A DNA stretch of 64,000 bases. It comes from a virus. Lineage: Duplodnaviria > Heunggongvirae > Uroviricota > Caudoviricetes. This document shows positions 4,640 to 50,458 of this stretch, piece by piece (position 1 is the first letter of the stretch; every line of letters starts with the position of its first letter). The stretch lies in the IMG/VR virus record IMGVR_UViG_3300022661_000054, one strand, 5' to 3'. The notes beneath the pieces are model-generated. The model was not told where the DNA came from, did not search any database, and was given only the letters and a program-made list of their open reading frames with translations. Both the position numbers and the translations under genes were made by a program.

Positions 4640-4652
4640 AATAATTTACCCC

Positions 4653-6259: not shown

Positions 6260-6286
6260 TTTAAAGTTTGCCTTTCTTTAAATATA

Positions 6287-7984
6287 TTAAATTGTATAAA
6301 CAGCACCACTATTATCAGTTAGAATAGCACCGTTTGATGTTGTTACGGGCTCAAGACTACACACAGTTGATAAAATTTCCATTACATCTTCATCAGTAGC
6401 TATATTAATATTTATATTACCTATTTTTATATTTTTAGGCTTAGAATTAAGGAAACAAGGATCTTTTACTTCTTCACCACTTTCATTCCACCAGTCAATC
6501 ATAATAAATTGACCTAGTGCTGCTTGGGGTAATATTACTTTTAGTGTAATAGATGAATCAGTTGATTCAACGCGCTCTTCCGTATAGTCAAAACTAAGGG
6601 TGCTACCGTCTTCGCCATATAAACCACAACCAAAATCATCCACACCAACGTCAAACCTTCTCCAGTATAAGCCATTGTCAATATGTTCTTGTGTAATTTC
6701 TTGTATAGTGCTAATAGAAGTTTCTTCAAATTCATACTCACAGGATACAAGGTTATTAATAGTGTCTCCAACAACTTTAGCGTCCGCTGCAAGACCATCG
6801 TGAGTTAAAGACTTATCTGTATCTATGCGCAATCTTTTCTTATCAGCATATGCATAGATGTAACCTTCACCAGACTCTCCTGCGTCAGAAGTAATCGTTA
6901 TTGTATACGGAGCAGAGGTTTCTGATAAAATGCTGCTAGCACTAAATGAGTTAATAAAATCTCTTAATGTAAAAGTTGCAGGATTGTTCTTATTAGCTGG
7001 GAAGTAGATTAAATCATAAAGGCCTGAAACATAGCCAAAGTCTATATTATTTACTCGAAAACAATAAGCCCATGCACCGTCTATACTTGGATCTGCATAT
7101 GTATAAATAGGTGTGTCAATACTATCAACAGTAATTTTTATACCATCTGAACTATCTGAATAGTCTGTATTACCATCAATCCATTTTGAAAAAATAACTG
7201 GCTCTAATATATCTGGCGGCAGACCAATATTTTCTCTTGCCTGAGCTTTTTGTTCTTCTGTCAACTTTTGAGAGTCAAAGGATACATATTGGTCTTCAAT
7301 ACGTACTTCTTTGTAGATCTCTAAATAAGGTTTTGCCCAATCTGCAATCCAAGTAATCTCTATAGAAGTAATACCGAGCGTTTCTGGAGGGTCCATGTAA
7401 CCAAACGCATTAGAAGAATCTTCTTTTAACAATTGCTGCCAAGAACTGTAAAAGTCCATTCCAGAGACATCCACGGCACCATTGATTCCGGGAAATGTTT
7501 GATAAATTCTTTGTCCCATATCGTCATAGTACCAAATACTAAAGGTTCCTTCATATCCAGTATTATCTACGCATTTAAAGATATCAAGACCTTCGGCAAT
7601 TGGAAGATTTTCTATTTCCGGAATAGATGCTGCGCCAAGCCATCTAATACCATAAGTTGTTGTATCTCCAACTTCCATTGGAGCATACCTTTCCTCGGAC
7701 TTTTGTTCAATACCAAAAAAAGGTAGCTTATTTACTGGAGTTCTACCGTCACCAATCTTCATACGTTCATAGGTATATGGCTCAGTTCTGCTGTATGTGC
7801 CATCTTTATTCTTCGGTAATTTTGGATTACCTTCAGCATCAACTAGGACGTTTCCATTTTCGTCTACTTCGGTATCATAAACGACGATCTCACCTGCAAG
7901 AGGTTTAAAATTAGTAGCGTTAAGCCAATTTACTTCTAAGTCATGCTTATTTTGAATTCGCGTTGTAATCTTTTTTGCAGACAT
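6287..7984 (-). CDS. Tail fibre protein carrying the shared N-terminal anchor motif
   Basis: The N-terminus ...HDLEVNWLNATNFKPLAGEIVVYD...YERMKIGDGRTPVNKLPF matches the motif that recurs on six other proteins in this window. Confidence 0.75.
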   Translation of the reverse strand: MSAKKITTRIQNKHDLEVNWLNATNFKPLAGEIVVYDTEVDENGNVLVDAEGNPKLPKNKDGTYSRTEPYTYERMKIGDGRTPVNKLPFFGIEQKSEERYAPMEVGDTTTYGIRWLGAASIPEIENLPIAEGLDIFKCVDNTGYEGTFSIWYYDDMGQRIYQTFPGINGAVDVSGMDFYSSWQQLLKEDSSNAFGYMDPPETLGITSIEITWIADWAKPYLEIYKEVRIEDQYVSFDSQKLTEEQKAQARENIGLPPDILEPVIFSKWIDGNTDYSDSSDGIKITVDSIDTPIYTYADPSIDGAWAYCFRVNNIDFGYVSGLYDLIYFPANKNNPATFTLRDFINSFSASSILSETSAPYTITITSDAGESGEGYIYAYADKKRLRIDTDKSLTHDGLAADAKVVGDTINNLVSCEYEFEETSISTIQEITQEHIDNGLYWRRFDVGVDDFGCGLYGEDGSTLSFDYTEERVESTDSSITLKVILPQAALGQFIMIDWWNESGEEVKDPCFLNSKPKNIKIGNININIATDEDVMEILSTVCSLEPVTTSNGAILTDNSGAVYTI

Positions 7985-8233
7985 ACTATTATATTTAACT
8001 CCTTTTTATCATTTTTTATATAAATAAAATAAACCCGTTAGTTATCTACTAGATAAAATAAAGCTAGACTTTAATAACAAACGAGTTTGATAATGATCTT
8101 ATATTCATATTATAAGTCTCCTTTAAAATTATCTTTTCAAATTTTCGGACACGAGGATAGTCATCTTTTCAGACATACCCTTAAATTTTTTATTTATAAT
8201 TTACTTTCTTCTTTTAATTTAGCATATAAATAA

Positions 8234-8278
8234 AAGAGCTTTAAGAGAAATTTTTAATAAATCTATCTTAAAGCTCTT
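8234..8278 (-). terminator. Intrinsic terminator after the 8287..8544 gene
   Basis: A 12-bp perfect stem (aagagctttaag / cttaaagctctt) is followed by a T-rich tract on the minus strand. Confidence 0.5.
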
Positions 8279-8286
8279 GTTACTGT

Positions 8287-8544
8287 TTAGTCAGGTAAAC
8301 CGGTTATTCGCCCACCGTCAACCTCTTCATCGTAACGATGTTCATATAAAACATCTTCCGTTGTAGATTTTATAAAAAAATCTAATTCTTGTAAAGTTCT
8401 AGCGCCATCACCGACTTTAATACGAGAATACTTGATTTTGTCGTCAGGATCATATATAATTAATTCCCCTGCTTCTGGTTTAAAAGAAGATAACTTTAGC
8501 CATTCTGCCTCGGTCTTATGTAGATTACTTATTCTAGCTTTCAT
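8287..8544 (-). CDS. Anchor-only mini-protein (85 aa): the shared fibre N-terminal motif with no fibre shaft
   Basis: Sequence is MKARISNLHKTEAEWLKLSSFKPEAGELIIYDPDD..IKVGDGARTLQELDFF. A TAATG overlap couples it to the upstream gene. Confidence 0.6.
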   Translation of the reverse strand: MKARISNLHKTEAEWLKLSSFKPEAGELIIYDPDDKIKYSRIKVGDGARTLQELDFFIKSTTEDVLYEHRYDEEVDGGRITGLPD

Positions 8545-9236
8545 TAATTAAAGTTACCTCCATTTTTAAGAATTTGTTTAATTACCATATTGTCTACCGA
8601 TTCAGATATATCTGTACCATAAGAAAACATATTTACTTTTTCCATGTCTGATAGAGATTTTATATACTGTTTAGCGGCATTAAAATATGTTGTATGGTAA
8701 AGAACGTGTGCCCTGAAAGTTTTTACAATCTTAAGCATGTCTTCACGTAAAAATATTTTACACGGTTTATCAGTAGCGTGATATATAAAGGTTTCTTCTC
8801 CCGCAACTAACTGACCTTCAATTACCATTAAGTTAATTTGATCTTCTGTAGTTAATTTAAAACTACACAATTCGCCATCAGATAAAGTAACAGAAAAACC
8901 GGCAGTAATTTTATTTTTACACGTATTAGAAAGACGTTTTATAACTTCACGCTTGGCCTTGGCAAGGGCTGATTCATTAGCGCTAGGCTCCTGACCAGAG
9001 TTTAATAGACTCTGTAGTCTATTAAACTCTTCAGAAGAAATTTCTTCAATAGTAACTATATCTGACTTTCTCTGCGCCAGAGGAGCAAATGCATATAAAG
9101 TTGTATTATCAGAACCGACTATTCCATGAGCGGAAGACTTATCCGTAAGATTTACTTGACCTGTAGACATCAGTCTAAAGAAGCGAGGTATCTTTACTAC
9201 ATCAATAACCTTATTATTAAGTATAATTTTATACAT
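8544..9236 (-). CDS. Hypothetical protein (230 aa), possibly a fibre assembly or adapter protein
   Basis: Its start overlaps the stop of the giant gene through a TAATG junction. No motif recognised. Confidence 0.65.
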   Translation of the reverse strand: MYKIILNNKVIDVVKIPRFFRLMSTGQVNLTDKSSAHGIVGSDNTTLYAFAPLAQRKSDIVTIEEISSEEFNRLQSLLNSGQEPSANESALAKAKREVIKRLSNTCKNKITAGFSVTLSDGELCSFKLTTEDQINLMVIEGQLVAGEETFIYHATDKPCKIFLREDMLKIVKTFRAHVLYHTTYFNAAKQYIKSLSDMEKVNMFSYGTDISESVDNMVIKQILKNGGNFN

Positions 9237-12200
9237 TATGCTTCCTCCTCATACTCAAAATTAAGAATACAATTACTTGCACCAAATGTTGGGTCTTTTT
9301 CTCTGCCTTGATCGTCTACTCCAGAATAGTAATTGTAATGTTGCTCTTCTGTCCATGGGAAATTAAATATAACAGGGTTATCCTGGCTACCAGAATTTAT
9401 GAAGGCTCCTGGATGAATATAGAAAGGCTGCTTGTCACCACTTTCAGTATTTTTAAAAGTTACACTCTTCAAAGTTGACATATATCCAAAAGCTCTCTCC
9501 ATGATGTTGGTTACAGTAGATGGGATTATAACACTTTCTAATATACATTGATTAAATACATAAGTTCTTATGTCAGTTAAGCCTTCTGGTAAGACTACTT
9601 CAGATAGCTTATAACACCAAGAAAAGCAAATATCACGTAATTCTTTTAGTGTACTTGGCAACACAACATTTTGTAGTTGCTCACAATGACTAAATGCATT
9701 GTCAGCAATAGAACTTACACCATTAGGTATTTCAATAGCTGTAATTGGCATTTTAGCAAAGCAATATCTACCAAGACTGACTACAGAACCATCTTGTGGA
9801 ATCTCGTTAGTTAGACCTTGAAGTAACTTTTTACTTTGTTTATCAATTAAACAATTTTGTTTAACTACAAATTTAGTATTGCCTTCTGCAACATTAATTT
9901 TCGTTAGCTTCAAGCATTCTGCAAAAGCGCCGTCATTAATAGTAGAAACATTAACTGGAATAGTTATTTCTTTTATTGTATCACAGCCTTGGAAAGCCCT
10001 TGAATCAATTGTTTCTAGAGAATCAGGTAAATTAATCAACTCCAATTCATCATGATCGTTAAAACCACCTAATCGTATTACAGTATAAGGCATGCCAGCG
10101 ACCTCAATATTTTTTGGTACAGTAACAGCAGCATTTTGATAGTTATTATATTTAATAATAGCCATTGTACCATCTGGATTGAGCGTATGCCCGACTTGTA
10201 GCTTTTCATTATAATCATAATATTCACCAATATCATAAATGTCTACTACATGCCAGGAGCTTTCTGATACCTTAAATTGTGCATAGCAAGTCATCGGACC
10301 AACAATTTTTTCTGGTGCTGGATGCCAACCAGTAAACTCATATATATCAGAAGATGGTACAACCGGAGTGGGATAGCCAGCGCCAAAGTAGTCTGCATCT
10401 TCACCATAAGGAACATAAATTTCAGCTAATAATTGGTTTCCCTCTGGGGCAGTTTGGTTTATAAATGTTATAAGATAACTACGCCTAATTGCCTCAAAAG
10501 CAGGATAAAGTATTCGATTACCAGCAACTCCAAGTAAAGCATCCGCATGAACACCCTCACCTAATTTTCTAGTCCAACCAATCCACTCGTAATTAAACTC
10601 TTCAGTAGAATCTTTAGTAGGCTTAGCAATCATACCTTCAGGCACTTGGCCATCGTCACCTAAATAGACCGGATCTTCACAATCAACTATCTCAGAATTA
10701 TATGATATAATGGTTTCACGATGTAGTACTGTTTCACCATCAGCACCCATAAATATAACATCTGAAGTCATTTCACCATATATAATATCAAGATAAGGAT
10801 AATGAGCTTTAATTTCTGTATACTCCTCACCTGTGAGCTTTGTAATATAGCAAGTACCAACTAAATAAGCGTCATCTAAAGGATTGTTTTTTTCGTCAAT
10901 ACCTCTTATACCACTAACAAGATTACCTGCTTCATCAAATACTGGAAACAAAGATGTGATAAAACTAGCATCAGCTAAAGGCATTTCTGCCGTGCCCCAC
11001 TCGATACCGGTAAGACGGACACGCTCAACAGTGTACTTGCCAGTATTATCGCAGCAATTTGCAAGTATTTCATTTGTATTCAAATTAGGACAGTTTTCTA
11101 TACACAAAGTTCTTATGTTTTGGTAACCCTCTACATAAAATCCGTCTATGAAGTCATCAGAACCGTTCTCTCCACGCTGTGGATACAAATAATGTTGATT
11201 TTTAATAACTAGCGTATTAATCGATGCAGGAAGATGAAGCGTCTTAATATAGCCACTAGTAGGCAGGTCTACTGAGGTAAGGTTAGTACCTTCAGTGTAA
11301 ATATGCTCAATATTAGGACATCCAGATAGCTCCAAAGTCTTTTGCGGATTTTCACCCGCAATACCAAGGCCTGAGCAGTTTCTTAAATCAATATAGCGCA
11401 ACAACCTATTAGAGCCTACTGAAATTTCACGGAAGTTATCATTATAATATGCAGAGTCTGGATTACCAACAGTTAGCTCTGTTAATTTTGCAGCATTACT
11501 TAGGTTAATAACACCACAATATAAACCAGACAAATCACCAAGAGAAGAGATTTCGCTGGCACCATAGATAGCGGTCTCAGTGTCACCGAATGTTTCATTC
11601 TCATTTAGCGGTTTAAATGTGTAAGATTCACCTGCTTTTAACCTTTGTTGCTGAAGTGTACCAGACTTATAACGAACGCCAGCATACATATCTGAGAAGG
11701 GTGTTATAGTAATATTAGGATTAGCAGGTACAACAGCCAAAGAAGCGTTGATACGATCAATTTCTTCCTGTGTAGCATCGTCAGCAGCCTTAGGAGTATA
11801 AATTCGTAAGAAAATATCATCACTCGGGTAGTTTCCTGCATACCACTTGCTATCACAGTAATTTATACGGTTATCAATAAAGTATCTTAAATGGTGCTCA
11901 CCAGGGCCACGAACTTGATAAAGGTTAGAAGCATCTATACCAGTTACTTCATTACCGTCTTCATCCTTATGAGCAACATGCTCTCTTGCCATAGAAACGT
12001 ATTTATAATCTGCGTCAGCGTTATAGATGGCAGCACTCCATTTATCAGAACCATTAGTAACGAATTGTTCTATAATTTTATTATAGGTTAGCTTTCCACT
12101 ACTTCTTAGTTCAGAATAAGTATCCTCGATCTCTTTTGGAAAACAGAGTCTGAAGTTGTTCCAAAGTACGCTATTCTGACCATTAAATACATTAGAAGAA

Positions 12201-15200
12201 CCGAGTTGATCAGTATCTTCGTGAAAATAGTCAAAAACTAGAGCACCTTCATTGTTGATACCAAAAATTGTGTCGTTATCATAGAAGTATGGATACCATC
12301 TAAAAACACCATCGTCCTCTTTCCAACGAGTAAGGAATAGGTTCTTAGCCCTCTGGTCAGTCATTAGCGCAAAGAACGTGAATACATAATACATGCTACT
12401 ATAATGCATGTTGAAGTAATTTTTAAATTCGTACTTAAACTTAGCTAATCTATACTCTTCATTGTCCTCAGTATAAGTTGTTTCACCATAAACTATAGGT
12501 TCAGTCAATGGTGCAGGGGTAATTGCTACTTTTTTACCATCTATAAGAGAATATGTAGCTGTACTGAGTACCCAATCATGCATTTCTTTAAAGTTAGCAA
12601 TGCAGTTAGACATTAAAGTAGCGAGCTCATTTCTTTGCGCGGATGTCATTGTACCTTTTCCGCTTGCTGCGAGCTCTTCAACTTCTTTTAGTTCTTCAAT
12701 ACGCTCAAAGTTAGCAGATTCTGGTACATATCTCGGTTCAAAGTCTTCTAGCCAATCAGCTGTGATCTCACCGGCGAAGTTTACTGTGTCAGAAGTGTTA
12801 TTACAGAATTCCCAACATTCTACGCCGTAGTCTTTATACTCTTCAGTAAATCCAAAAGCATTTTCAGCATCTTTATCATAGTTAAAGTTACCCTTAGATG
12901 AAAACACTGGTTCAGAGTCTTCAGTCTCTTTTTCAAAGATAATAATTGGGAAACCTTGAATCGTTGTACGTACTCTAGTATCATCTTTCTGCGGCGGGAG
13001 AATTACTTCTTCTCTATCATAAAAAGTTTCAACGTAATTAGCAACTCCTGTATTGTGGGTACCAGTAGCTTCTGCGTAATCTACTTTAACACAAAATACT
13101 TTTGCTGGAATGGCCCCAGGCATATGAGCCCTTGCTTCAGGAAGCTTTACTTTCCAGTTTTTACGAATATAGAACTGTGAAGAAGTACCTTGTACGTCAA
13201 TCTGGTCCAAAAGTACGTCAAAATTCATTTCTGGGTGCGTTGGGTCCTCAAACTTCATACGTGTAGTCTTCTTCTTTTTATCACCTTTATACGTAGGCAT
13301 TGGGCCTGTAAAAGTAATAATAGGAATCTGCCCGAGAGCTTTTACTCTATCATATGAAACCTTACCGTTTTCGTCTAATATATCATTATCCGTCATAAGC
13401 TGTAGTCTTGTAGTAGGCACAGTCTGGTCTGCAATATAGTTATTTAAAGCGGCAGATGTTGAAAGTGCTTTATTATAAATACGAATATTATAAATATCAA
13501 GTCCACATAAATTTGAACCCAGTTTAATAGTTAATGGGTTATTCTGCTGAAAGCTATCAGTGTCTGCATATCTTTGTACTCCAGAAAGAATACCGTCAAG
13601 ATATATAGAAACAAAACGAGAAGTCGTATCTGAATGTTCTACTGCTATAGCGACTCTAACACGCTCCTCATCTTTATATCTGCAAGAAACCTCTGTACCA
13701 GAGCTCTTTAAGAAAGCAGTATCTGGGGTTGCTCTGAAACCTTTAGAACCATCGAAACAATCGATTACAACAGCATCGCGGTCATTAACATCACGAACAA
13801 CAAACTCAAATTCAATGGTTTTACCATTAGCCTTAAAGTCTTCAGCAAAAGGTTTAAAGTTAATAATTGCTTTAGCATCACCATTTAGTCTTAAGCAGGT
13901 ATCACCGGCATTATCAGTAATCCAACCGTTAGATGTCCAGTTAAAACCCTCAAAAGAAGTAGTAACCGTGTTATATGTTTTGTCACCATCAGGTGCTTGA
14001 GTATATTCCCAAATGGCTGGATTTTGCTCATTATTTGAGCGACCTTGTGCAGACAGGTAGAGCTGCATACTGTCCTCTTCAGGTGATACATCTACCTCAA
14101 GCTCTGCCACCCTCACAGTATGTGATTTAGTAATAGTCGTTTGTACACCATACAAATTATAAGTATAACTAATTTCAAATACTGCAATACCATTTGGATA
14201 TTTTCTCGTATTCCAGAATTGCTGGCTACGGTCTACAGTAATAGATGTTCTGTCTATTTCAATTAATTCGCCAGCTACCTGAGAGTACACAATAAGTTCG
14301 ATATCACTATTAATTTTAGCAGGGTCATAAACCATGTAAGGAATTGATACAAGGTCACCCTGAGTAGCTTCCTCAAAGTCATACACAGATGTGATAATAG
14401 CAGTATTGTTATCATTCTCAATACAAATAATCTCATACTCAAGAATATTAGAAGTAACAGTATTGTCGCCAACAACTGCGGATACATGAGCAGTAATTTT
14501 ATGGCATCCATGAGCTTGCTTCGGAATTAGCAAGGTTATTTCATTACCACTAACACTTGCGCCAAGTTTTTTAATAGAAACCTCTGCGCCATCTACTAAG
14601 ATATAGGCAGTCTTTTCTATCTGCCCAAATACTTTATATCTGAATGTAATAGCATCATTAAAAATTTGTGTACTATTAAAAGCAGATTCAAGACGGAGTT
14701 CAATCTGTGAAATGGTATATACTAAAGTTCTCAAAGAACCATACTGGTCAGTACAAGTTACCTTAACAGTATTTGAACCATTTTTTAAATGATCTGCAAC
14801 ATTCAAAGACTTAGCTATTCCATGTTGAATACTACCAGATAGAGTCTCAATTTTTTTATCATTTATAACAACAGAATAAACACCATCACCAGTAGGTACT
14901 TCATTTTCGAATGATGTATAAGTGAAATTAATCAATGCTTCATTACCCTTTGAAATAGTAAATGAAGTAGAAGGAAGATTATTTATTACTCTAACCGTGG
15001 AGATGCTTCCACCACCACCTGTGCCTCCAGTAATAGTTACTGGGTCACCAACCGGTATATCTTTAGAAGTTAACCATAGCTGATTGTCTTCGTAGAGCAA
15101 ACCATCAACAGCGTTAGAAGGAATATAGCTAGGTAGACTTGCTTTAAGAGCGTCGAGGTCATCACCAATAGCTCTAACTGCATCACCAGCAGAAGCGTGA

Positions 15201-16990: not shown

Positions 16991-17054
16991 AAGCTTAACT
17001 CCAATCTACTTGTTTTATTGTTCGTATAATTTAGCAAATAGATTAAAAAAAATT

Positions 17055-17082
17055 AAGCAGGTGACCTTAAGGTCACCTGCTT
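17055..17082 (-). terminator. Intrinsic terminator after gene 17107..19398
   Basis: Perfect 28-nt palindrome aagcaggtgacc-ttaa-ggtcacctgctt followed by TTTTTTTT on the minus strand. Confidence 0.75.
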
Positions 17083-17106
17083 AAAACATATATTAGTATC
17101 TAATTA

Positions 17107-19398
17107 TTACTTTGTTTCGTCTATTACAGTATCAGCAGTGCCGCAGTCAATTATGAACCAACCACCAAATCTATCCTCAAGGGCAGTAACACGACCATCT
17201 ACAGCAGAAATAGCAGCAGTGTTATCAGCAACTTCATTTTCCTTAAGAGCTTTTACCTGATCATCAGCATGTTTTTTAGCAGCAGCCTCTGCAGCAGGAA
17301 TTGTAGTATTTACAGCTGTATCGATTCTAGCGTTAATCTGAGTATCAGCAGCAGCAAATTCACTACGAATAGCAGCCTCCTGACCTTCAGCTCTAGATTT
17401 CTCGGTAGCGATAGCTGTAGTATTCTCACCAATTTTACCAGTATTAGCAGCAATATCGGATGCGTTCTTCTCAACAACAGTCTTTAGCCCAAACTTACCA
17501 TCAGCTTCTGTCTTAGTATAAACGTTACCAAGAGCCTGCTCTGTGGCATTCTTATCTGTTTCGTAAGTAGCTTTGTCAACTTTCTTACCAAGCTCGGTCT
17601 CAACATCTGTCTTTAGAGCATGCTTTGCAGACTCTGTCTCAAGAGCAGTGATCTTGCCCTCAGCTGTAGTCATACGACCTTCAAGAGCAGTTACGCCAGC
17701 AGCTGCCCCTTCAGCAGTTGTTTTTACGCCATCAACAACGTCTTCAAGTGCATCAACGTCATCCTGAGCAGCATCCGCTGCAGCCTGCGCAAGAGCAGCA
17801 TTATCGATACCAGTCTGGCCCTTTGCAGCTGCAGCTTCTACAGCAGCCTTAATAGTACCATCAAAACCTGCAGTTAGCGTTTCAAGACTACCAACTTTGC
17901 CTTCGAGAGTAGTTGCACGGCCTTCAACTGCGGTTGCACGACCTTCAAGAGCATCAATGTCATCCTCTGCTGTATCCATACGGTCACTAAGTGCTTCGAT
18001 AGCATCAGCATTGGCTGCAATATCCTCTACCATTTTGCCGGCGGCGGTGTCATCATCAGTGATATATTTTTGAATCTCTACTAAAGTGTCAAGAGCTTTG
18101 TCAATAGTAACAGAGTTACCTTCAGCATCTTTTGGATCAAAGAATGCTTCAACTTTATCAAGACGCTCGTCAAGAGCTGCTTCAGCCGCTTCAGCACGAC
18201 CCTTTTCAGTAGTTACAAGACCTTCAACTCTAGTAATCTCAGCAGTAACAGCTGAATTGTTATCAGTAATAGCCTTAGTATTTGCCGCAACAGTTTCTGC
18301 AAGAGCATTTACCTGAGAGGTAGTCTCACCTTTAGCGGCCTCAATAGCTTCACCCTTAGCAGTTGCAATAGCAGAAGTATAAGCATCAGTTACATTAGTG
18401 ATAGCAGTCTCTCTGTCGCTCTTTTCAGTTACAATAGCATTAGCATTATTAGAGATAAGACCAGCAAGTCTGGTATCCTCAGCAACGAGCTCTGCATCTT
18501 TTGTATTTAAAGTATTAACAGCGCTAGAAAGTGCACTAGCAGCAGTCGCTTCAGCGGCAGCCTGTGCTTCAGAAGCCTTAGTCTCTGCGTGAGACTTTGC
18601 AGCAGACTCTGCAGCACTAGCCTTAGAAGCAGCATCAGCCTTAGCTGCCTCAAGAGTCGCTGCGTCGCCAGTAGCAATAGTACCATTGTTACCTACGAGA
18701 GCGTCGATACGACCACCAAGAGCAGAGTCAGCAGCTTCAAGTGCAGACTTAGCAGTAGCTAACGCACCAGCAGCAGTTGCTTCGGCCGCAGTCTGAGCAG
18801 CATTTGCTTTTCCGTCTGCATAGCTCTTTAGCTCATCATCAGACATTGCCTTACCTGCGATGTAAGCATTATAAACACTCTTATCGAGTTTATCATTACC
18901 TAGGTTTGTAATAGTGCCTTCAGCGGTTTCAAGACGTTCATCAAGAGCATCAATCTGACCCTGAACAGAATCTTCACCATCGAATTTGCCTTCGAGTGCA
19001 ACGATTCTGGAATCTAAACCATTTGTAATAGCCTTCACATCTGCTTCAGTATAATAATCAAAGGTAACTGACTCGATAATATTATCTTTAGCATCTAAGA
19101 AGCGAAGAACTTTACCAGAGCGGTCAATCTTTGCAGCCTTAGCCCAACTATAAACATCAGCTGCGAGGGAGGAAGCCCATTTTAGATCCTTAAAAGGGGT
19201 AGTACCATCACCAATTTTAAAAAGTGTTGTAGGAGCGGTCTGCGCGCCTTCACTCTTATTTTCTATAGCACAGATACCGAGCTCACCTTTTAAAAGTACG
19301 AGATTTGCTCCTAGGTCAGTCTTAGACTCGTCATGCCAGTGATCATAAGTATCATACTTAAGAGCAATTCTAGTTTGTAATTTCTTTACATCAGCCAT
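17107..19398 (-). CDS. Ala-rich coiled-coil fibre protein (763 aa) with the N-terminal anchor motif
   Basis: The N-terminus ...HWHDESKTDLGANLVLLKGELGIC...LFKIGDGTTPFKDLKWAS is followed by a long A/E/T-rich heptad region. RBS is AGGAGATAAATAATT. Confidence 0.85.
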   Translation of the reverse strand: MADVKKLQTRIALKYDTYDHWHDESKTDLGANLVLLKGELGICAIENKSEGAQTAPTTLFKIGDGTTPFKDLKWASSLAADVYSWAKAAKIDRSGKVLRFLDAKDNIIESVTFDYYTEADVKAITNGLDSRIVALEGKFDGEDSVQGQIDALDERLETAEGTITNLGNDKLDKSVYNAYIAGKAMSDDELKSYADGKANAAQTAAEATAAGALATAKSALEAADSALGGRIDALVGNNGTIATGDAATLEAAKADAASKASAAESAAKSHAETKASEAQAAAEATAASALSSAVNTLNTKDAELVAEDTRLAGLISNNANAIVTEKSDRETAITNVTDAYTSAIATAKGEAIEAAKGETTSQVNALAETVAANTKAITDNNSAVTAEITRVEGLVTTEKGRAEAAEAALDERLDKVEAFFDPKDAEGNSVTIDKALDTLVEIQKYITDDDTAAGKMVEDIAANADAIEALSDRMDTAEDDIDALEGRATAVEGRATTLEGKVGSLETLTAGFDGTIKAAVEAAAAKGQTGIDNAALAQAAADAAQDDVDALEDVVDGVKTTAEGAAAGVTALEGRMTTAEGKITALETESAKHALKTDVETELGKKVDKATYETDKNATEQALGNVYTKTEADGKFGLKTVVEKNASDIAANTGKIGENTTAIATEKSRAEGQEAAIRSEFAAADTQINARIDTAVNTTIPAAEAAAKKHADDQVKALKENEVADNTAAISAVDGRVTALEDRFGGWFIIDCGTADTVIDETK

Positions 19399-19446
19399 AA
19401 TTATTTATCTCCTATAAAAATTTAATAAAATTTAATTTATTTTAGC

Positions 19447-19479
19447 AGGTTACTTGGCATAATTAATGCCAAGTAACCT
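19447..19479 (-). terminator. Intrinsic terminator after gene 19500..22313
   Basis: A 14-bp perfect stem (aggttacttggcat / atgccaagtaacct) is followed by an AT/T-rich tract on the minus strand. Confidence 0.6.
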
Positions 19480-19499
19480 ATTTAATTTAGCTTATTATT

Positions 19500-22313
19500 T
19501 CATTCAGTAGCTTTTGCGGTAGCAGAACCACCGTTAAGAATAAGCTCATCGCCCTCAGTCTGAACAAGCTTATTAACATTAACTTCTTTAATGCCAAGCT
19601 GAACACCAGTAGCACCTTCGCCTTCAATAGCAGCAACAGAAATCTCAGTAGATTCTTTAACTTCTTTAGCCGCAACAGAAGCAATAAGTGCTGCAATATC
19701 TTCCGCATTCTTCTCATGTGCAGCAGTATTAGCAGCAATAGCTAAAGCATTAGCCTCATGAGCAGCTTTATTATTAGCTACATCAGTTACTAGCTGAGCA
19801 ATATCGCTGGCATTATCGTTTACAAACTCAATAAGGTTTGTAACGTTGGTAATAGTATCTTCAGCATTTGCACCACCGATAAGAGCATTTACACGAGCGT
19901 CAACCTGTGCTTCTGTTAAGAAGGTATCATCAGCCTCATCCTTAGTATATACGTCAGCAGCATTTGCTTTAAGATCAAGAGCAGACTGATTGGCTGTCTT
20001 AAACTCTTCAAATGTTGCCTTCTCAAGATAAGGATCAAAGTCTACATCTGGAATTGCATCAATAGCACCCTGAACTGCAGAATCGACTTCGTCTTTGGTG
20101 TAATAGCCATCAAACTTATCAGTGTTTGCTTTAATAAGGTTGGCGAGCTCAGTGTCTCTAGTCTTAAGACCAGCAATATCTGATCCATGAACAGCAACAA
20201 CACCAGCAAGACCCTTGTTATTATCAGTGCCGTCACCGTTAATAATACCCTCTAGAGAATCGATTCTAGAAGATTCAACAACACCGACCTCAGTCTCTAA
20301 AGCAGATAATCTAGTGTTAAGAACAGTTAGTCCAGTCTCATCACTATTTAATCTTTGCTGAATCGCTGCAATAGTTGAATCATGAGTTCCGATATTGGTA
20401 GCATTTTCATTAACAGCGTCAATAAAGCTTTGACCATCTTTAAGGTCAGAAACTTTGACGTTTGAGATTACAGGAACCTCAATATTTACTGTTTTATCAT
20501 CATCAGAAGGAGTTAGCTTAGTGCCATTAACTGCGATGTACTCAATAGAGTTAGGTTCACCGCCAACCTCAGTGATTTCTTTAATTTTACCTTCTAAGTT
20601 ATCCGCCTTAGTAGCAGCATTAGAAGCAACCTGAGAAACACCTGCTAATTCGTCTTTAGTTGCGGCGTTTGCAATGGTAGCAAACTTATCATCAGCTGAA
20701 GTCTTATCATAATAGTTATCAGCAAGGTCTGTTTCAACATCACCAATGCGTGTTCCAACAGATTCAAACTGGCCTTCAACGTCAGACTTGACAGCAAAAG
20801 TTGCCTTGTCAGTAGTATAAGAGTCTACATCTACTTTCTTAGCAAGGTCAGCATTTACATCAGCTTTAAGAGCAAATGTAGCCTTGTCAGCAGTATAGTC
20901 AGCAACATGCTGTTCATAAGTAGTATTATCAACTTTCTTGCCAAGTTCTGTTTCTACGGCAGAAGCTTTTGCATATTGGCCAAGATTTTCAGCCTCAATA
21001 GCTTCTTCAATAGCACTTGTAACTTCGTCTGCAGTCTGTGCTGCTTCAGCAGTAGCCTTAACATCGTTTAAAGCAGAAACGGTAGCAACTACAGCTTCAT
21101 CAATTGCAATTTCACCGTCTGTGCTAACAGTAATACCGTTACCACCAGTGTAGGTATCGATAAGGTCATTAAGCTCAATCTCAGTAGCATTTTTACCTGC
21201 ATCAGTGTTCCAAGTAAGAGTAAGCTTCTTAGAATCCTTATCATACGCAGCACTATCAAGCATACCGTCTTTAACGAACTTAGCAGCATTTACAGAAGCA
21301 ACCTCTGTACCTGCACTATTCTTAATTACGATATAGTCAGATTCAACTTCGTTAACAGTCTTCTTCTCAATGGTTATGTCAAGCCCAGTGATCTGTTCGT
21401 CAGTGTAGCCCTTTGCAGAATTAAGAGTATCAGCATCAGCCTGCTCACGAGCTTTAGCTTCATCATCGATATCTTTTTCAAGAGCAGTTACACGATCAGC
21501 AAGTTCGGTATCGTCATAAGCATCTTCAGAAGTTAGATAATCATCCTCGATAGCTTTGATTCTAGCTTTAACATCTGTGTCATCATAAACAGTGTCAGCA
21601 TCAGCAGAATCTGCATAGTCTTTAGCTCTCTGCTCAGCTTCTGCAATAGCGGCATAAAGACCTGTTGCATTTTGGTCACCCTCAGCGGCTGCACCAATCT
21701 TACCATTAAACTCATCTTTAACGCCCTGAATAGCTGTCTCTACAGAAGTAGTAGTAGCATAGGCAGAAAGATCGAGAGAGATTTTATAGGTATTAGTATC
21801 TGTATCATCATCACGTACCTTCTCGATTAGTACATGAGTCTCTTCATCACCAGCAGCGATTACAGTTTTAGTGTTAGTATCGCCTTCTGTAATAGAATCG
21901 ATTGGAACCCACTTGATTGAACCATCAGCCTGCTTCTGTGGAAGAGTTGATTCTGCAGCAGCCTCAAAGCCAGCTAAGCTTAAAACACCATTCTCATCAA
22001 GAACGATGCTCTTACCATCGCCGTTAGTAGCTTTACCAACTTCTTGAAGAGTACCAGCGGCGTCGGCAATAATATAGAATGTTACGTTATCTACTACAGT
22101 AGCATCTTCTGCGTTAGTAGTAACAACAGCAAGTGTTTGACCTACATATGCAATAGCATTTTTGGTCGCATAATCCTGAGCAGCCTCAAGAGCAGTTTTA
22201 TCAGCAGTAGCATAGAATACGCTATAAGCTTCTAGAGGGAAACAACCCTGTCTTTTAAAGCTATTAGGATACTCAGTTAAATTTGTAGGAATTCTAGTTA
22301 AAAGTTCCGCCAT
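19500..22313 (-). CDS. Long fibrous coiled-coil structural protein (937 aa)
   Basis: Uninterrupted ORF with D/E/A/T-rich heptad composition. It is followed by a terminator, which suggests high expression. Confidence 0.85.
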   Translation of the reverse strand: MAELLTRIPTNLTEYPNSFKRQGCFPLEAYSVFYATADKTALEAAQDYATKNAIAYVGQTLAVVTTNAEDATVVDNVTFYIIADAAGTLQEVGKATNGDGKSIVLDENGVLSLAGFEAAAESTLPQKQADGSIKWVPIDSITEGDTNTKTVIAAGDEETHVLIEKVRDDDTDTNTYKISLDLSAYATTTSVETAIQGVKDEFNGKIGAAAEGDQNATGLYAAIAEAEQRAKDYADSADADTVYDDTDVKARIKAIEDDYLTSEDAYDDTELADRVTALEKDIDDEAKAREQADADTLNSAKGYTDEQITGLDITIEKKTVNEVESDYIVIKNSAGTEVASVNAAKFVKDGMLDSAAYDKDSKKLTLTWNTDAGKNATEIELNDLIDTYTGGNGITVSTDGEIAIDEAVVATVSALNDVKATAEAAQTADEVTSAIEEAIEAENLGQYAKASAVETELGKKVDNTTYEQHVADYTADKATFALKADVNADLAKKVDVDSYTTDKATFAVKSDVEGQFESVGTRIGDVETDLADNYYDKTSADDKFATIANAATKDELAGVSQVASNAATKADNLEGKIKEITEVGGEPNSIEYIAVNGTKLTPSDDDKTVNIEVPVISNVKVSDLKDGQSFIDAVNENATNIGTHDSTIAAIQQRLNSDETGLTVLNTRLSALETEVGVVESSRIDSLEGIINGDGTDNNKGLAGVVAVHGSDIAGLKTRDTELANLIKANTDKFDGYYTKDEVDSAVQGAIDAIPDVDFDPYLEKATFEEFKTANQSALDLKANAADVYTKDEADDTFLTEAQVDARVNALIGGANAEDTITNVTNLIEFVNDNASDIAQLVTDVANNKAAHEANALAIAANTAAHEKNAEDIAALIASVAAKEVKESTEISVAAIEGEGATGVQLGIKEVNVNKLVQTEGDELILNGGSATAKATE

Positions 22314-22327
22314 TATTTATTTCCTCC

Positions 22328-23521
22328 TTAACCTAAAGTAACAGTGAGCGAAGTCTCTGTGCCATAAGCTTCTGCAGGAGTAAATGTCCAAACATTATAA
22401 TTCTCTGCATAGTCACCAATACTTGTAGCAGTAGCATCAGCACCGCCAACAGAAATACCTTCAGTCTTAGTGAATGAAGTAGTCATGTCTGCATTAACAG
22501 TATTATTATAAACCTTAGTTACACCAGTAGAGCCTGCAGGACAAGCAAGTATAATAGTAGAAGCACCAACAGGAACAGTCATGTTCTTTGTACCAGCTGC
22601 ATACTTAGCACCAGTCTTAGCAAGACCTCTAATAGTAGCACTATCTAGATCAGCTGTAGCAGTCACATCAGAAGTAGTACCGAAGAAAAAGCCCTCACGG
22701 AAACCTGTAATGCTGAAAGTAATCTCTTTAGAAGAAGAACTACCTTTAATCCTCTTACTATCAACTATAGCACCAACATTATTAACAGGAGTTCTTGGAG
22801 AATCGCCCCAAGTACATACGTTTGTAATCTTTGCGACTTCTGCAGAAGAAGTAGAACTGATAGAAATCTGCGGATTAAGAGTAACAGTACCATCTACGCC
22901 GTCGGTAAATGTACCTTCTTTAGTACAAGAAACGTCATAAGAAGCTGTTACACCTGTAGCAGTGTCAGTATATTTTGTGTCACCAATCTTAGAACCAAAT
23001 TCATAAGAACCAGCGCTAAATGTGCCATCCCAAGAAATTGTCTTAATCTTACTACCGATTTCAGCAGTACCTGTGTTAGTTACAATACCATAACCAAGAA
23101 CAGTACCATTAGACTTACCGTTATGAGTCTTCACCATCATGCTAAATGAAGGTTGACCAACAGCAGGATCTTTTGTCTCTGAAAGAGCATCAAGTAGCCA
23201 TTCAGAAGTTGTCATACCCTTACCACCAGCGTTTACGAAACCGTTGGAAGTAGTATGACGTCCGAAGTTGTAAGTGAGGATCTGGTCTTCCTCAAAAACA
23301 CCTTCTGCTTGAGGAAGGTCTTTCCAAGCAGTGTCTGAACCGTCACCGACTTTGATGATTGGAACCTGAACATTTTTGGTTTCACCATCAATAGTCTTAG
23401 CAACAGTCATGTAGCCAACACCAACTTCACCAGCTTGTAGGCGATAGCTGTTATCAGCTTCCCATGCTTCTTTAGAGCCATTTCTCAAGACAATAATAGT
23501 ATTCAATGTCTTTTGTGCCAT
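22328..23521 (-). CDS. Structural protein (397 aa) with the N-terminal anchor motif and an S/T/G-rich beta region
   Basis: N-terminus ...GSKEAWEADNSYRLQAGEVGVGY...IIKVGDGSDTAWKDLP. RBS is AGAGAGGTAAACAAA. Confidence 0.8.
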   Translation of the reverse strand: MAQKTLNTIIVLRNGSKEAWEADNSYRLQAGEVGVGYMTVAKTIDGETKNVQVPIIKVGDGSDTAWKDLPQAEGVFEEDQILTYNFGRHTTSNGFVNAGGKGMTTSEWLLDALSETKDPAVGQPSFSMMVKTHNGKSNGTVLGYGIVTNTGTAEIGSKIKTISWDGTFSAGSYEFGSKIGDTKYTDTATGVTASYDVSCTKEGTFTDGVDGTVTLNPQISISSTSSAEVAKITNVCTWGDSPRTPVNNVGAIVDSKRIKGSSSSKEITFSITGFREGFFFGTTSDVTATADLDSATIRGLAKTGAKYAAGTKNMTVPVGASTIILACPAGSTGVTKVYNNTVNADMTTSFTKTEGISVGGADATATSIGDYAENYNVWTFTPAEAYGTETSLTVTLG

Positions 23522-37588: not shown

Positions 37589-37834
37589 TTAACCCTCTCT
37601 CCAAGTACACAAAACTGCAGCTATGATAGCAATAAGTATAAGTACCACTACTAAACCAATGCTAATCCATATGGGTGAAAATACCCACCACCAACTCCAG
37701 TTAATTACCTTAAACAGCTTTAAAATAACAAATAAAGCAGTAAGTATAAATATAAAATCAAGTTCTTCTTTAGTTTCTTCAACATTTTTCTGATTAGTTT
37801 CTTCTTTAGACATTCCCCAAAATAACCCTTTCAT
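37589..37834 (-). CDS. Small membrane protein (81 aa)
   Basis: Two hydrophobic helices. Overlaps the upstream gene by 29 nt. Confidence 0.5.
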   Translation of the reverse strand: MKGLFWGMSKEETNQKNVEETKEELDFIFILTALFVILKLFKVINWSWWWVFSPIWISIGLVVVLILIAIIAAVLCTWREG

Positions 37835-48961: not shown

Positions 48962-50458
48962 TTAGCAGCCTTCAGAGGTTCCGCAGTCAAATGTAATTGT
49001 ATCTGTATCAGCTAAAAAGTTACTATCGTTTTCTAACTGACTTATTTTTGTAGGTAATGCTTTATACGTACCGTCATTGCTTAAAACTCCCGTACCATCG
49101 CCGTTAGTTGTAATAGCACTTAAACGTCTGTCTTCAACATAGTTAGTTGTAAGTAATTCTATAACAATATTTTTACTAGCAGCTAATTCAAAATCAGCAG
49201 GCTTCAATAAATAATATGTATAAGGAGAAACAGATATAGTTATTTTATTTGTATTCGCCGATGCCGAAATAATATAAGAAATAGAATCATACTCTAGCGG
49301 AGACCACGATACATTTAAATTAACCTTAAGATTTTTAATATATAAGTTTCTTAATGAACCGCACATTCTAAATGCGTCTCTCCAGCTACCCTGTTTTGCA
49401 CCAAAGTTAGTAACATTAATAGCATCAAAGTTACCAGCATTCTCAATTGCGGTTGCTTCGCACATTAGACCTCTACAGTCTTTAGGCAGTATGATATTGA
49501 AGTCAGGATCGTCGTGTCCAAAGACACCAATTGTTCTAGCACCGTAGTAACTAAATACTTGTGTTGCCCAAGTTGCTTTTGCGAAACTATCCCGATATGC
49601 CTTGTTTCCCCAGTTTGGGTCACTATTTACGTTGAAGGCTAAATAAAATGCTTTAAACGTATTATCTGGAATAGATGAGTAACATAGAGGTAGCTGTGAG
49701 GTATAGTATAAGGTATAGTTTGTTCTTTTAGCAACGTCGCTTATATAAGGATTGTCGCTCCAGAAAATACAGTTTAAGTATTGCGCAAATTGTACCTGAT
49801 ATGAACCCTGATTACCTTGGCTCCACTTTGAATACATATCCTCTGCATTCATATTAAACAAGATATTTGAAAACTGTTTAACACCTTCCAGCCAGGAGTA
49901 GTAAGTTCCCAAAGCCCCTGGCCAAGCATTTAGTGCTAGGATAGAGTTATTAGACGTTGGTATAATCTCGAATTCATCCGTCTCCAGGAATTTAATTTCT
50001 ACATTAGAGTTCGCAGGATAAGTAGTAGAAGTACCATTAAGATTAATAGTAACATCTTCAATACAGTAGAATCTTAATACTGTATCTGATGCCAGTCTCT
50101 GGAATAAAGCTTCAACTTGCTCTTCAGACGTAAAGTTAGAATCATTTTCTAATTGACTAACTTTAGTAGGCACATCCTCTATTTTGGCATAACTATCCAA
50201 AGCGTTTATAACGGTTTCATCTATAAATGGAAGCTCATTTACTGGAGTGATGCCATCACCGAGCTTCATCCGTTCATATGTATATGGAGCAGTTCTATCT
50301 TCTGGCAGTTGAAGAATACTCCCGTCGGCAGCCACTTCACTGTCATAAATAATTAGTTCACCTTGTAATGGAACAAACTCAGGAGCGTTTAACCAAGTAA
50401 TTTCTAAGTCATGCTTATGTACGATTCTTGTTTTAATAAGTTTCTGGTTAATATTCAT
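48962..50458 (-). CDS. Additional tail fibre protein (498 aa) with the N-terminal anchor motif, located outside the main fibre cluster
   Basis: N-terminus ...HKHDLEITWLNAPEFVPLQGELIIYD...YERMKLGDGITPVNELPF. RBS is TTAGGAGGCT. Confidence 0.8.
   Translation of the reverse strand: MNINQKLIKTRIVHKHDLEITWLNAPEFVPLQGELIIYDSEVAADGSILQLPEDRTAPYTYERMKLGDGITPVNELPFIDETVINALDSYAKIEDVPTKVSQLENDSNFTSEEQVEALFQRLASDTVLRFYCIEDVTINLNGTSTTYPANSNVEIKFLETDEFEIIPTSNNSILALNAWPGALGTYYSWLEGVKQFSNILFNMNAEDMYSKWSQGNQGSYQVQFAQYLNCIFWSDNPYISDVAKRTNYTLYYTSQLPLCYSSIPDNTFKAFYLAFNVNSDPNWGNKAYRDSFAKATWATQVFSYYGARTIGVFGHDDPDFNIILPKDCRGLMCEATAIENAGNFDAINVTNFGAKQGSWRDAFRMCGSLRNLYIKNLKVNLNVSWSPLEYDSISYIISASANTNKITISVSPYTYYLLKPADFELAASKNIVIELLTTNYVEDRRLSAITTNGDGTGVLSNDGTYKALPTKISQLENDSNFLADTDTITFDCGTSEGC

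What the first reader, a model, noticed from the sequence alone, without database searches (positions are those of the whole stretch)
6287..23521. A shared ~55-aa N-terminal anchor motif heads six different fibre proteins (plus an 85-aa anchor-only ORF)
The N-termini of the products of 6287..7984, 8287..8544, 9236..16990, 17107..19398, 22328..23521 and 48962..50458 share one pattern: a basic stretch, then W...N..L..GEL (or V or I), then K(I/V)GDG.T.(w/f)..LP(f/y). Downstream of the motif the proteins differ completely (565, 85, 2584, 763, 397 and 498 aa). The 937-aa product of 19500..22313 has a divergent N-terminus, so I count it as a possible but unsupported additional member. This looks like a common docking domain that lets many alternative fibres attach to one virion site, or a hot-spot for shaft and tip shuffling. 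One copy (48962..50458) is separated from the cluster by about 25 kb of early genes.
Basis: seen in the sequence. Interest (0 to 1): 0.75.

Follow-up and report, generated by a model that had tools for sequence, protein, structure and literature searches.

The report
Shared Mtd_N head on six phage fibres

Summary
All six minus-strand ORFs exist as stated. Leave-one-out HMMs recover each N-terminus at E 1e-4 to 5e-13, against E >= 0.037 for any other ORF in the window. The 937-aa protein is not a member.

The motif is a divergent subtype of Pfam PF18454 (Mtd_N):
- Window proteins score below threshold, but 37 of 56 aligned sequences (50 metagenomic homologues plus the six window N-termini) hit it.
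- It also matches dozens of viral proteins named hyaluronidase, Mtd_N-domain, tail fibre or minor tail protein.

An exhaustive search finds 9,602 cluster representatives, almost all with the domain at residue 1. Related large gut-phage contigs commonly carry 2-5 copies per 20 kb.

The six copies are old, differentiated paralogues. Each is closer to a counterpart in other phages than to its in-genome siblings, except the 565/498 pair. This argues against interchangeable fibres competing for one site. N-domains stay fixed while distal parts are swapped, which fits a chassis-side attachment and trimerisation module.

The "anchor-only" ORF is a conserved gene that also carries a conserved C-terminal motif.

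Verdict: a new member of a known kind, of moderate-to-low interest.

The parts
7709..7984 (-). Mtd_N-type N-domain (aa 1-92) of the 565-aa protein (ORF 6287-7984). It has the longest internal insert, about 42 aa between GEI and KIGDG.
   Evidence: Alignment; leave-one-out HMM E 7.6e-9; Pfam Mtd_N below threshold at 12.7 bits; 72-nt DNA repeat, 82% identical to the 498-aa gene (D7).
8287..8544 (-). 85-aa ORF made of an Mtd_N domain (aa 1-58, 8371-8544), a linker, and a conserved C-terminal tail ...EVDGGRITGLPD (8290-8325). Its start overlaps the stop of the 230-aa gene, and a GGAGG sits upstream.
   Evidence: Leave-one-out E 4.7e-13; AF2 pLDDT >= 90 for residues 11-55; HylP/Mtd fold matches; orthologues in L008, L009, L013, L039 and L045 keep both the domain and the tail; the exact protein occurs on 24 or more contigs.
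8544..9236 (-). 230-aa companion gene with no Mtd_N domain. It lies between the giant fibre and the 85-aa ORF and may be a fibre accessory or chaperone-like protein.
   Evidence: phrog_1348 'tail fiber protein' E 3.6e-12; weak DUF4376 hit; homologues precede an Mtd_N ORF in 14 loci.
16823..16990 (-). Mtd_N-type N-domain (aa 1-56) of the 2584-aa giant coiled-coil fibre (ORF 9236-16990). It is the copy closest to the classical RRGT..EW...GE...KIG.G pattern.
   Evidence: Leave-one-out E 1.5e-4; Pfam Mtd_N 14.7 bits; N-domain orthologues in L009 and L008 at 57-59% identity. The distal part (aa 625-2240) is shared with small gut siphophages that lack this N-domain.
19171..19398 (-). Mtd_N-type N-domain (aa 1-76) of the 763-aa Ala-rich coiled-coil fibre (ORF 17107-19398). 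The protein ends in ...FIIDCGTADTVIDETK.
   Evidence: Leave-one-out E 4.3e-9; conserved across phages only over aa 7-89; C-terminal motif.
23303..23521 (-). Mtd_N-type N-domain (aa 1-73) of the 397-aa protein (ORF 22328-23521).
   Evidence: Leave-one-out E 3.9e-6; C-terminal part matches phrog_35541; best homologue in L080 covers aa 1-381 of 397 at 38.6% identity.
50219..50458 (-). Mtd_N-type N-domain (aa 1-80) of the 498-aa protein (ORF 48962-50458), which lies 25 kb from the cluster. The gene is flanked by terminator-like hairpins (50555-50521 and 48942-48912) and preceded by GCTAAATTA (50503-50511).
   Evidence: Leave-one-out E 2.8e-9; terminators; promoter-like motif; a full-length homologue (68% identity) sits inside a fibre cluster in L074.
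19500..22313 (-). 937-aa fibre-like protein that is NOT a member. Its first ~120 aa (21954-22313) form a different conserved N-terminal module ('N2').
   Evidence: HMM score -0.2; no Mtd_N hit; jackhmmer finds N2 at the N-terminus of 111-938-aa proteins in 20 or more related loci, between two Mtd_N genes.

Best explanation
The shared motif is a divergent subtype of the Mtd_N / HylP N-terminal domain (Pfam PF18454). In the solved trimers of Bordetella phage Mtd and streptococcal phage HylP, this small beta-rich domain forms the N-terminal cap.

In this jumbo phage of gut Clostridia-type hosts (source contig over 220 kb), six fibre-like proteins begin with it. The most likely working is as follows. 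The domain nucleates the trimer and forms the virion-proximal end, joining each fibre to the tail or baseplate, or to another fibre. Everything after the LP(F/Y) boundary is exchangeable cargo: coiled-coil shaft, globular tip, or almost nothing in the 85-aa protein.

The six copies are old, differentiated paralogues with positional orthologues in related phages. They most likely occupy distinct, fixed places in a multi-fibre apparatus rather than competing for one site.

Shown here: homology and fold assignment, strict N-terminal position, multi-copy recurrence, ancient paralogy, and modular exchange of distal parts. Inferred: trimer formation, attachment, and virion incorporation.
For: - Statistical reality of the motif.
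- Family assignment by sequence: below-threshold Mtd_N hits for 5 of 6 window proteins. 37 of 56 sequences in alignment A3 (50 metagenomic homologues plus the six window N-termini) hit Mtd_N, best E 3.6e-8. Close 80-aa homologues carry precomputed PF18454.
- Position: 9,602 cluster representatives at E <= 1e-3, and about 145 of the best 150 start within the first 10 residues, in proteins of 82-2578 aa. In 71 loci the median offset from the Met is 2 residues.
- Recurrence: 48 of 71 loci carry at least 2 copies, up to 5 in 20 kb, and all but one of the 175 copies are on the strand of the matched gene.
- Ancient paralogy.
- Chassis-side module: the 565- and 763-aa proteins are conserved across phages only in the N-domain. 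The giant protein's distal 1,600 aa recur in small gut siphophages without Mtd_N.
- Literature: Mtd trimers sit at the ends of tail fibres (PMC2408619), and the N-terminal beta-prism is the presumed attachment end (PMC10743442).
Against: - No window protein reaches Pfam's gathering score (12.7-15.1 bits against 26.3).
- Profile searches of PDB sequences did not retrieve HylP or Mtd.
- Foldseek E-values against PDB are weak (0.05-0.3) because the domain is short.
- Attachment by this domain has not been shown at high resolution for any phage in the literature I could read.
- There are no virion proteomics and no baseplate genes in this window, so no acceptor was identified.
Confidence: 0.65

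Rival explanations
1. Trimerisation nucleus only. The domain acts like a foldon or collagen NC1 unit that registers three chains at the N-terminus so the shaft can zip up. Docking to the virion would be done by other parts or other proteins.
Against: The giant protein's homologues in small siphophages form the same distal structure without the domain, so it is not needed for that shaft. The domain subtype tracks the phage lineage rather than the cargo. Short proteins of 66-100 aa carry the domain with little or no shaft to register, and they are common and conserved.
Confidence: 0.2
2. The six fibres are interchangeable and compete for one common acceptor site, giving mixed or alternative virion populations.
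For: All six share one fold and the same invariant residues. Four of them are preceded by the same promoter-like motif. The 565/498 pair is close: 53% amino-acid identity, and 82% DNA identity over 72 nt.
Against: Apart from that pair, in-genome similarity is 20-46 bits against 44-99 bits to counterparts in other phages, so there is no concerted evolution. The conserved gene order of specific subtypes across many phages implies fixed roles.
Confidence: 0.1
3. Head-to-tail docking code. The N-terminal module (Mtd_N or N2) of one fibre binds the conserved C-terminal h-h-(D/N)-(C/G)-G motif of another, building chained or branched fibres. The proteins of about 80 aa that carry only the two motifs would be connectors or caps.
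For: The C-terminal motif is present in 44 of 130 Mtd_N proteins and 13 of 18 N2 proteins, against 35 of 1,262 other ORFs in the loci. It is present in the window's 763-, 937-, 184- and 498-aa proteins, and as a variant in the 85-aa ORF. In BPP-1, Mtd docks on the distal end of the fibre (PMC2408619), and the upstream protein Bbp9 ends in ...ADLGGIA.
Against: No interaction was tested. In the broader protein set only 9 of 252 carry the motif, although many of those are fragments. The loci are phylogenetically non-independent. The Bbp9 resemblance is loose. The AF2 model of the 85-aa protein leaves the tail disordered.
Confidence: 0.08
4. Chance or compositional similarity with no homology.
For: None. 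The only point in its favour is that the domain is short and the Pfam hits are below threshold.
Against: Leave-one-out HMMs, thousands of homologues, and a consistent confident fold.
Confidence: 0.01

Closest known systems
[quoted passage not shown]
   Different: The window copies have a 12-42-aa insert between GEL and KIGDG and score below Pfam's cut-off. None of the six carries a Pfam hit to a C-type-lectin variable domain, and no reverse transcriptase was found among the 20 ORFs scanned with Pfam. Direct profile-to-Mtd sequence matching failed.
Streptococcal prophage hyaluronate lyases HylP1/HylP2/HylP3 (PDB 2C3F, 2DP5, 2YVV, 6X3M)
   Different: None of the six proteins shows a Pfam hit to a hyaluronidase or triple-stranded beta-helix catalytic region. 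They are not hyaluronidases.
Actinophage, cyanophage and other 'minor tail protein / tail fiber protein' genes with Mtd_N heads (for example Rhodococcus phage ReqiPoco6, Arthrobacter phage Qui, Gordonia phages, Synechococcus S-CBS1/3)
   Same: Same fold at the N-terminus of fibre proteins. Catalogued phages already show more than one such protein per genome: ReqiPoco6 D4P7L9 and D4P7M6, and two in Qui. Short plus long pairs also occur, such as 82 aa and 826 aa in Siphoviridae sp. ctL0q1.
   Different: Those are mostly small siphophages with 1-3 copies. Here there are six copies in a 64-kb window from a jumbo phage (source contig over 220 kb), including a 2584-aa giant.
Branched multi-RBP systems with conserved N-terminal anchors or peptides (G7C gp63.1/gp66, K1-5 gp37 adaptor, Klebsiella KP32/KP34/Menlow/PhiK64-1 groups, phiKp24)
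   Same: The design principle matches. Several receptor-binding proteins per virion have conserved N-termini for attachment and swapped distal parts. Truncated 'anchor-only' first RBPs serve as adaptors (PMC6872550), and jumbo phages can carry many fibres (PMC9700779).
   Different: The anchor fold is unrelated. Those systems use T7 gp17-like anchors, T4gp10-like branching domains and 7-11-aa peptides. No such domain was detected here.

Membership tests
Pfam PF18454 Mtd_N (HylP/Mtd N-terminal domain) | Direct match of the window proteins to the Pfam HMM at or above the gathering score (26.3 bits) | tested here: not met
   Five of six proteins hit at 12.7-15.1 bits (E 0.02-0.13). The 498-aa protein has no hit.
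Pfam PF18454 Mtd_N (HylP/Mtd N-terminal domain) | Transitive sequence homology to bona fide Mtd_N members | tested here: met
   37 of 56 sequences in alignment A3 (50 metagenomic homologues plus the six window N-termini) hit Mtd_N at E <= 0.01, best 3.6e-8. Homologues with 44-53% identity to the 85-aa ORF carry precomputed PF18454. UniProt names of fold matches include 'Major tropism determinant N-terminal domain-containing protein'.
Pfam PF18454 Mtd_N (HylP/Mtd N-terminal domain) | Same fold as the N-terminal domain of solved HylP and Mtd structures | tested here: met
Pfam PF18454 Mtd_N (HylP/Mtd N-terminal domain) | Located at the extreme N-terminus of a fibre or receptor-binding protein | tested here: met
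   All six start at residues 1-10. The same holds for about 145 of the best 150 representatives and for 175 ORFs in the loci, with a median offset of 2 residues.
Pfam PF18454 Mtd_N (HylP/Mtd N-terminal domain) | Forms a homotrimeric cap and attaches the trimer to the virion | not testable with these tools
   No multimer prediction or proteomics was available. This rests on inference from PMC2408619 and PMC10743442.
Phage hyaluronate lyase (HylP) | Catalytic triple-stranded beta-helix / Pfam hyaluronidase region downstream of the N-domain | tested here: not met
   No hyaluronidase family hit in any of the six proteins at E <= 1. For the 2584-aa protein only its first 700 aa were scanned.
DGR target protein (Mtd-like) | C-terminal C-type-lectin variable region with template repeat and reverse transcriptase nearby | tested here: not met
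   No C-type-lectin hit in the six proteins. No reverse transcriptase among the 20 ORFs scanned. No TR/VR-like repeat pair was found; the 120-nt repeat D4 lies wholly inside the 1352-aa gene. Not every ORF was scanned.
Anchor-branch RBP systems (G7C / CBA120 / PhiK64-1 type) | T4gp10-like branching domain or T7 gp17-like anchor | tested here: inconclusive
   No such Pfam or PHROG annotation in the cluster proteins. HHpred-level sensitivity was not available.

The most novel reading that the evidence does not exclude
The fibre proteins of this clade of large gut-Clostridia phages carry a two-ended docking code. At the N-terminus sits a module (Mtd_N or the unrelated 'N2'). At the C-terminus sits a conserved ...LVQ..GD.hhh(D/N)(C/G)G(S/T)(A/S) tag. 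Fibres would join head-to-tail or branch through N-module-to-C-tag contacts. The widespread 66-100-aa proteins that consist of just Mtd_N plus the tag would be connectors or caps that set the fibre-network topology.
Probability: 0.08. Interest if true: 0.7.

Novelty: new member of a known kind. Interest (0 to 1): 0.33.

Why it matters
This gives a clean example of how a jumbo phage of gut anaerobes builds a multi-fibre adsorption apparatus. One ancient, portable N-terminal head domain is mounted on very different shafts and tips.

For annotation, it lets these 'hypothetical proteins' be called Mtd_N-headed fibre proteins. That applies to the six here and to the several thousand related proteins the six-sequence profile detects, many of which have no Pfam Mtd_N call on record. 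It also marks the LP(F/Y) boundary as the natural junction for engineering or for tracing host-range module exchange.

It does not open a new mechanism. The design principle (conserved N-terminal anchor, swapped distal part, several fibres per virion) and the domain itself are already known.

Tried and rejected
- NCBIfam and PHROGs gave nothing for the N-domain.
- Profile searches of PDB sequences returned only artefacts: ribosomal uL22 at E 0.38, and concatenated RecA constructs at about 5 bits per repeat.
- The window profile does not hit BPP-1 Mtd directly.
- tblastn of the 85-aa ORF against 50,697 phage records found no match.
- Megablast of 12.5 kb of the window found only a 76-nt HNH fragment, so there is no close cultured relative.
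- Paper searches failed: 'PF18454' returned 0 papers and 'Mtd_N' matched mtDNA papers. The HylP1 structure paper and the BPP-1 cryo-EM paper, requested under PMC ids recalled from memory, could not be retrieved.
A narrower alignment worked.
- I tested whether the 937-, 184- or 1352-aa proteins are hidden members. They are not.
- The 85-aa ORF is not a fragment of the 565-aa gene. A 300-nt gap separates them, it contains an inverted repeat, and the downstream gene has its own N-domain.
- The C-terminal motif has no Pfam family. Its enrichment did not replicate in the fragment-rich protein set (9 of 252), so I keep it as a side observation only.
- The terminator scan did not call the hairpin after the 85-aa ORF, because its loop is too long.
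Full report
**1.
All six ORFs lie on the minus strand at the stated coordinates and lengths. To avoid circularity I built leave-one-out HMMs, leaving out the close 565/498 pair together. Each omitted member was recovered at E 1.5e-4 to 4.7e-13. The best non-member among 496 six-frame ORFs of the window never beat E 0.037. BLASTP all-against-all shows the similarity stops after about 90 residues. The 937-aa protein scores -0.2 bits and is not a member. No other fibre-like N-terminus in the window resembles Mtd_N. Domain length runs from 56 to 92 aa because of a variable insert of about 12-42 aa between GEL and KIGDG.

**2. What the motif is.**
- Pfam gives below-threshold hits to PF18454 (Mtd_N, 'Major tropism determinant N-terminal domain') for five of the six proteins, at 12.7-15.1 bits against a cut-off of 26.3.
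- The link becomes solid through homologues. A profile of the six retrieved 801 proteins, several of which carry a precomputed PF18454 assignment.
- 37 of 56 sequences in alignment A3 (50 metagenomic homologues plus the six window N-termini) hit Mtd_N at E <= 0.01, best 3.6e-8.
- An AF2 model of the 85-aa ORF is confident over the domain, with pLDDT >= 90 for residues 11-55.
- The top ten Foldseek matches in PDB are all streptococcal phage hyaluronidases (HylP; 6x3m, 2c3f, 2yvv, 2dp5), at probability 0.89-0.99. Nothing else exceeds probability 0.2.
- Against predicted viral structures, the matches at probability 1.00 are named 'Hyaluronidase', 'Major tropism determinant N-terminal domain-containing protein', 'Collagen triple helix repeat protein', 'Tail fiber protein' and 'Minor tail protein'.

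So the motif is a divergent subtype of a known, curated domain.

**3. Distribution.**
- An exhaustive HMMER search of 1.84 billion cluster representatives found 9,602 proteins at E <= 1e-3 and 2,435 at E <= 1e-10.
- In the best 150, the domain starts within the first ten residues in about 145. Protein lengths range from 82 to 2,578 aa.
- The window comes from an uncultured jumbo phage. The exact 85-aa protein is found on 24 or more contigs, the longest read being 220,267 bp.
- Relatives occur on MAG contigs assigned mainly to Clostridium, Faecalimonas, Acutalibacteraceae, Lachnospiraceae and Eubacteriales from animal and human guts, with single contigs binned as Kiritimatiellae and Bacteroidales.
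- In 71 fetched loci, 48 carry at least two Mtd_N-headed ORFs within 20 kb, and up to five. All but one of the 175 copies are on the strand of the matched gene, and the median offset from the start codon is 2 residues.
- Catalogued phages already show more than one such protein per genome, for example Rhodococcus phage ReqiPoco6 and Arthrobacter phage Qui. Short and long versions also occur in one phage.

**4. How the six copies relate.**
Apart from the 565/498 pair, each window N-domain is far closer to a counterpart in other phages than to its siblings in the same genome: 44-99 bits against 20-46 bits. The 565/498 pair scores 94.7 bits, has 53% amino-acid identity, and shares a 72-nt stretch at 82% DNA identity. 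The residues invariant among the six are the same ones nearly invariant across the whole family. They therefore mark the fold, not a phage-specific interface. The order 397-like, then 937-like, then 763-like is conserved in many related phages. These are old, differentiated paralogues with fixed places, not a homogenised set of interchangeable heads.

**5. Modularity.**
- The 565- and 763-aa proteins are conserved across phages only in their first ~90 residues.
- The position after the 230-aa gene is filled by an 85-aa protein here, but by a 783-aa Mtd_N protein in L011 and L012.
- The distal ~1,600 residues of the 2584-aa giant recur in small gut siphophages: NatCom_3357, where it sits at the fibre position after TMP-Dit, and Bacteroides phage BT-TP2. 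Their proteins start directly with coiled coil and lack Mtd_N.

The N-domain therefore follows the phage chassis and the distal part moves horizontally.

**6. The 'anchor-only' ORF.**
The 85-aa ORF is a real gene.
- It is translationally coupled to the 230-aa gene: the start overlaps the stop, and a GGAGG lies upstream.
- It is followed by an inverted repeat and a 300-nt gap.
- It is conserved in the same position in at least five diverged phages; tblastn identity to the 85-aa ORF is 33-67% for the four of these loci fetched directly with it.
- Those orthologues keep a C-terminal tail, h-(D/N)-(G/A/S)-G-(R/N)-I-x-x-Y, as well as the Mtd_N domain.
- Proteins of 66-160 aa dominate the top hits of the word-indexed search.

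It is therefore a minimal N-domain-plus-tail protein. By analogy with truncated first RBPs and adaptor proteins in Klebsiella, K1-5 and G7C-type phages (PMC6872550), it could be an adaptor or cap. That is inference only.

**7. The distant copy.**
The 498-aa gene is bracketed by terminator-like hairpins on its own strand, at 50555-50521 and 48942-48912. It is preceded by GCTAAATTA. That motif occurs nine times in the window, always on the coding strand, against 2.1 expected. Seven occurrences are intergenic, including those upstream of the 565-, 2584- and 763-aa genes. Its full-length homologue (68% identity) sits inside a fibre cluster in L074. It is best read as a relocated fibre cassette, probably co-regulated with the cluster.

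**8. Mechanism and rivals.**
Best-supported reading (confidence about 0.65): the Mtd_N head forms the N-terminal trimeric cap and the virion-proximal attachment end, and each paralogue has its own place. This is consistent with what is stated for Mtd, whose trimers sit at the ends of tail fibres, 12 per virion (PMC2408619). Its N-terminal beta-prism is the presumed attachment end (PMC10743442).

Rivals:
- A trimerisation-only unit (0.2).
- A head-to-tail docking code with the C-terminal motif (0.08).
- Chance similarity (0.01).

What is shown: homology, fold, position, recurrence, paralogy and modular exchange. What is inferred: trimerisation, docking and virion incorporation.

**9. Comparison and novelty.**
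The domain is curated in Pfam and solved in two proteins. The design principle, several fibres with conserved N-terminal anchors and swapped distal parts, is well known, including in jumbo phages (PMC6872550, PMC9700779). Several Mtd_N-headed proteins per genome already exist among catalogued phages. This locus is a new, rather rich member of a known kind. Its distinguishing points are six copies in one window, a 2584-aa member, a long-insert subtype that falls below Pfam's threshold, and a conserved minimal member.

These proteins are not hyaluronidases and not DGR targets. None of the six has a Pfam hit to a catalytic or C-type-lectin region, and no reverse transcriptase was found among the 20 ORFs scanned with Pfam.

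**10. Caveats.**
- There is no experimental evidence for virion incorporation.
- No acceptor was identified, because the baseplate genes lie outside the window.
- The Foldseek E-values against PDB are weak because the domain is short.
- The loci used for counting are phylogenetically related.
- The C-terminal motif enrichment is strong in the loci: 34% of Mtd_N ORFs and 72% of N2 ORFs against 2.8% of others. It was not seen in the fragment-rich protein set, at 9 of 252.

Noticed in passing
window 17110-17184, 19503-19577, 23589-23663, 48965-49039 and 8290-8325 (all minus strand); many ORFs in loci L006-L071: A second shared feature sits at the C-termini of the fibre-like proteins: hydrophobic run-(D/N)-(C/G)-G-(S/T/N/G)-(A/S), 2-10 residues from the end, often preceded by LVQ..GD. 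Examples are FIIDCGTA, LILNGGSA, IIDGGGPSA, TFDCGTSEG and VDGGRITG. In the loci it occurs in 44 of 130 Mtd_N ORFs and 13 of 18 N2 ORFs, against 35 of 1,262 others. It has no Pfam family. It was not enriched in the fragment-rich protein set. Its function is unknown.
   Followed up: partly
window 21954-22313 (minus), N-terminus of the 937-aa protein; weakly also 23586-24140: The first ~120 aa of the 937-aa protein form a second, unrelated conserved N-terminal module ('N2'). It heads proteins of 111-938 aa in 20 or more related loci and typically sits between two Mtd_N genes (phrog_33094). The 184-aa protein is a weak relative (E 0.0024).
   Followed up: partly
window 6098, 8215, 17027, 19483, 24683, 29443, 35679, 50503, 60873 (minus strand): GCTAAATTA occurs nine times, all on the coding strand, against 2.1 expected and 0 of 100 shuffles reaching nine. 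Seven occurrences are intergenic, 29-231 nt upstream of start codons, often just after a hairpin. Several read as an extended -10-like TGCTAAATT, which suggests a phage promoter element.
   Followed up: partly
window 51899-52345 (minus): A full-length ribosomal protein L9 gene is encoded by the phage, with both Pfam L9 domains at E 5e-21 and 5e-26.
   Followed up: no
window 29738-30598, 31553-32443, 37806-38831, 47685-48833 (minus): Auxiliary genes between the fibre cluster and the distant copy: FolD (methylene-THF dehydrogenase/cyclohydrolase), an SPFH/Band-7 protein, an RlaP-type nucleotidyltransferase and a T4-type RNA ligase.
   Followed up: no
window 3323-4639 and 5462-6259 (minus): A CotH-family kinase and a family-2 glycosyltransferase are embedded between the fibre genes and the lysis genes. 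They may modify virion or host-surface components.
   Followed up: no
window 66-1046 (minus); L001 18518-19492: A lysin with an M23 peptidase domain plus three SLH domains is followed, just outside the window, by an Amidase_3 gene. The SLH domains point to a host with an S-layer-type wall, consistent with the Clostridia MAG hits.
   Followed up: partly
window 24824-27928 (1352-aa gene) and 50108-50170 (498-aa gene): The 1352-aa protein contains several internal DNA repeats (families D1-D4, one of them 120 nt at 83% identity). These encode a ...PTKVSELENDANY...-type fibre repeat. One copy, at 79% DNA identity, sits right after the N-domain of the 498-aa protein.
   Followed up: partly
L084 (Bacteroides phage BT-TP2, PQ571279.1) 4795-13807: A homologue of the giant protein's distal part is followed by a reverse transcriptase and a DUF4376 protein. 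This may be a diversity-generating retroelement acting on that fibre. The window's giant is likewise followed by a DUF4376-like 230-aa gene, but no reverse transcriptase was seen.
   Followed up: no
protein P0171 (377 aa): One family member has six matched stretches of the Mtd_N profile, with the best at residues 308-351. It appears to be a tandem array rather than a single N-terminal head.
   Followed up: no
L072 (BPP-1, AY029185.2) 4599-6125: Bbp9, encoded immediately upstream of mtd in BPP-1, ends in ...NIGLADLGGIA. This loosely resembles the C-terminal motif noted above. The resemblance may be coincidental.
   Followed up: no
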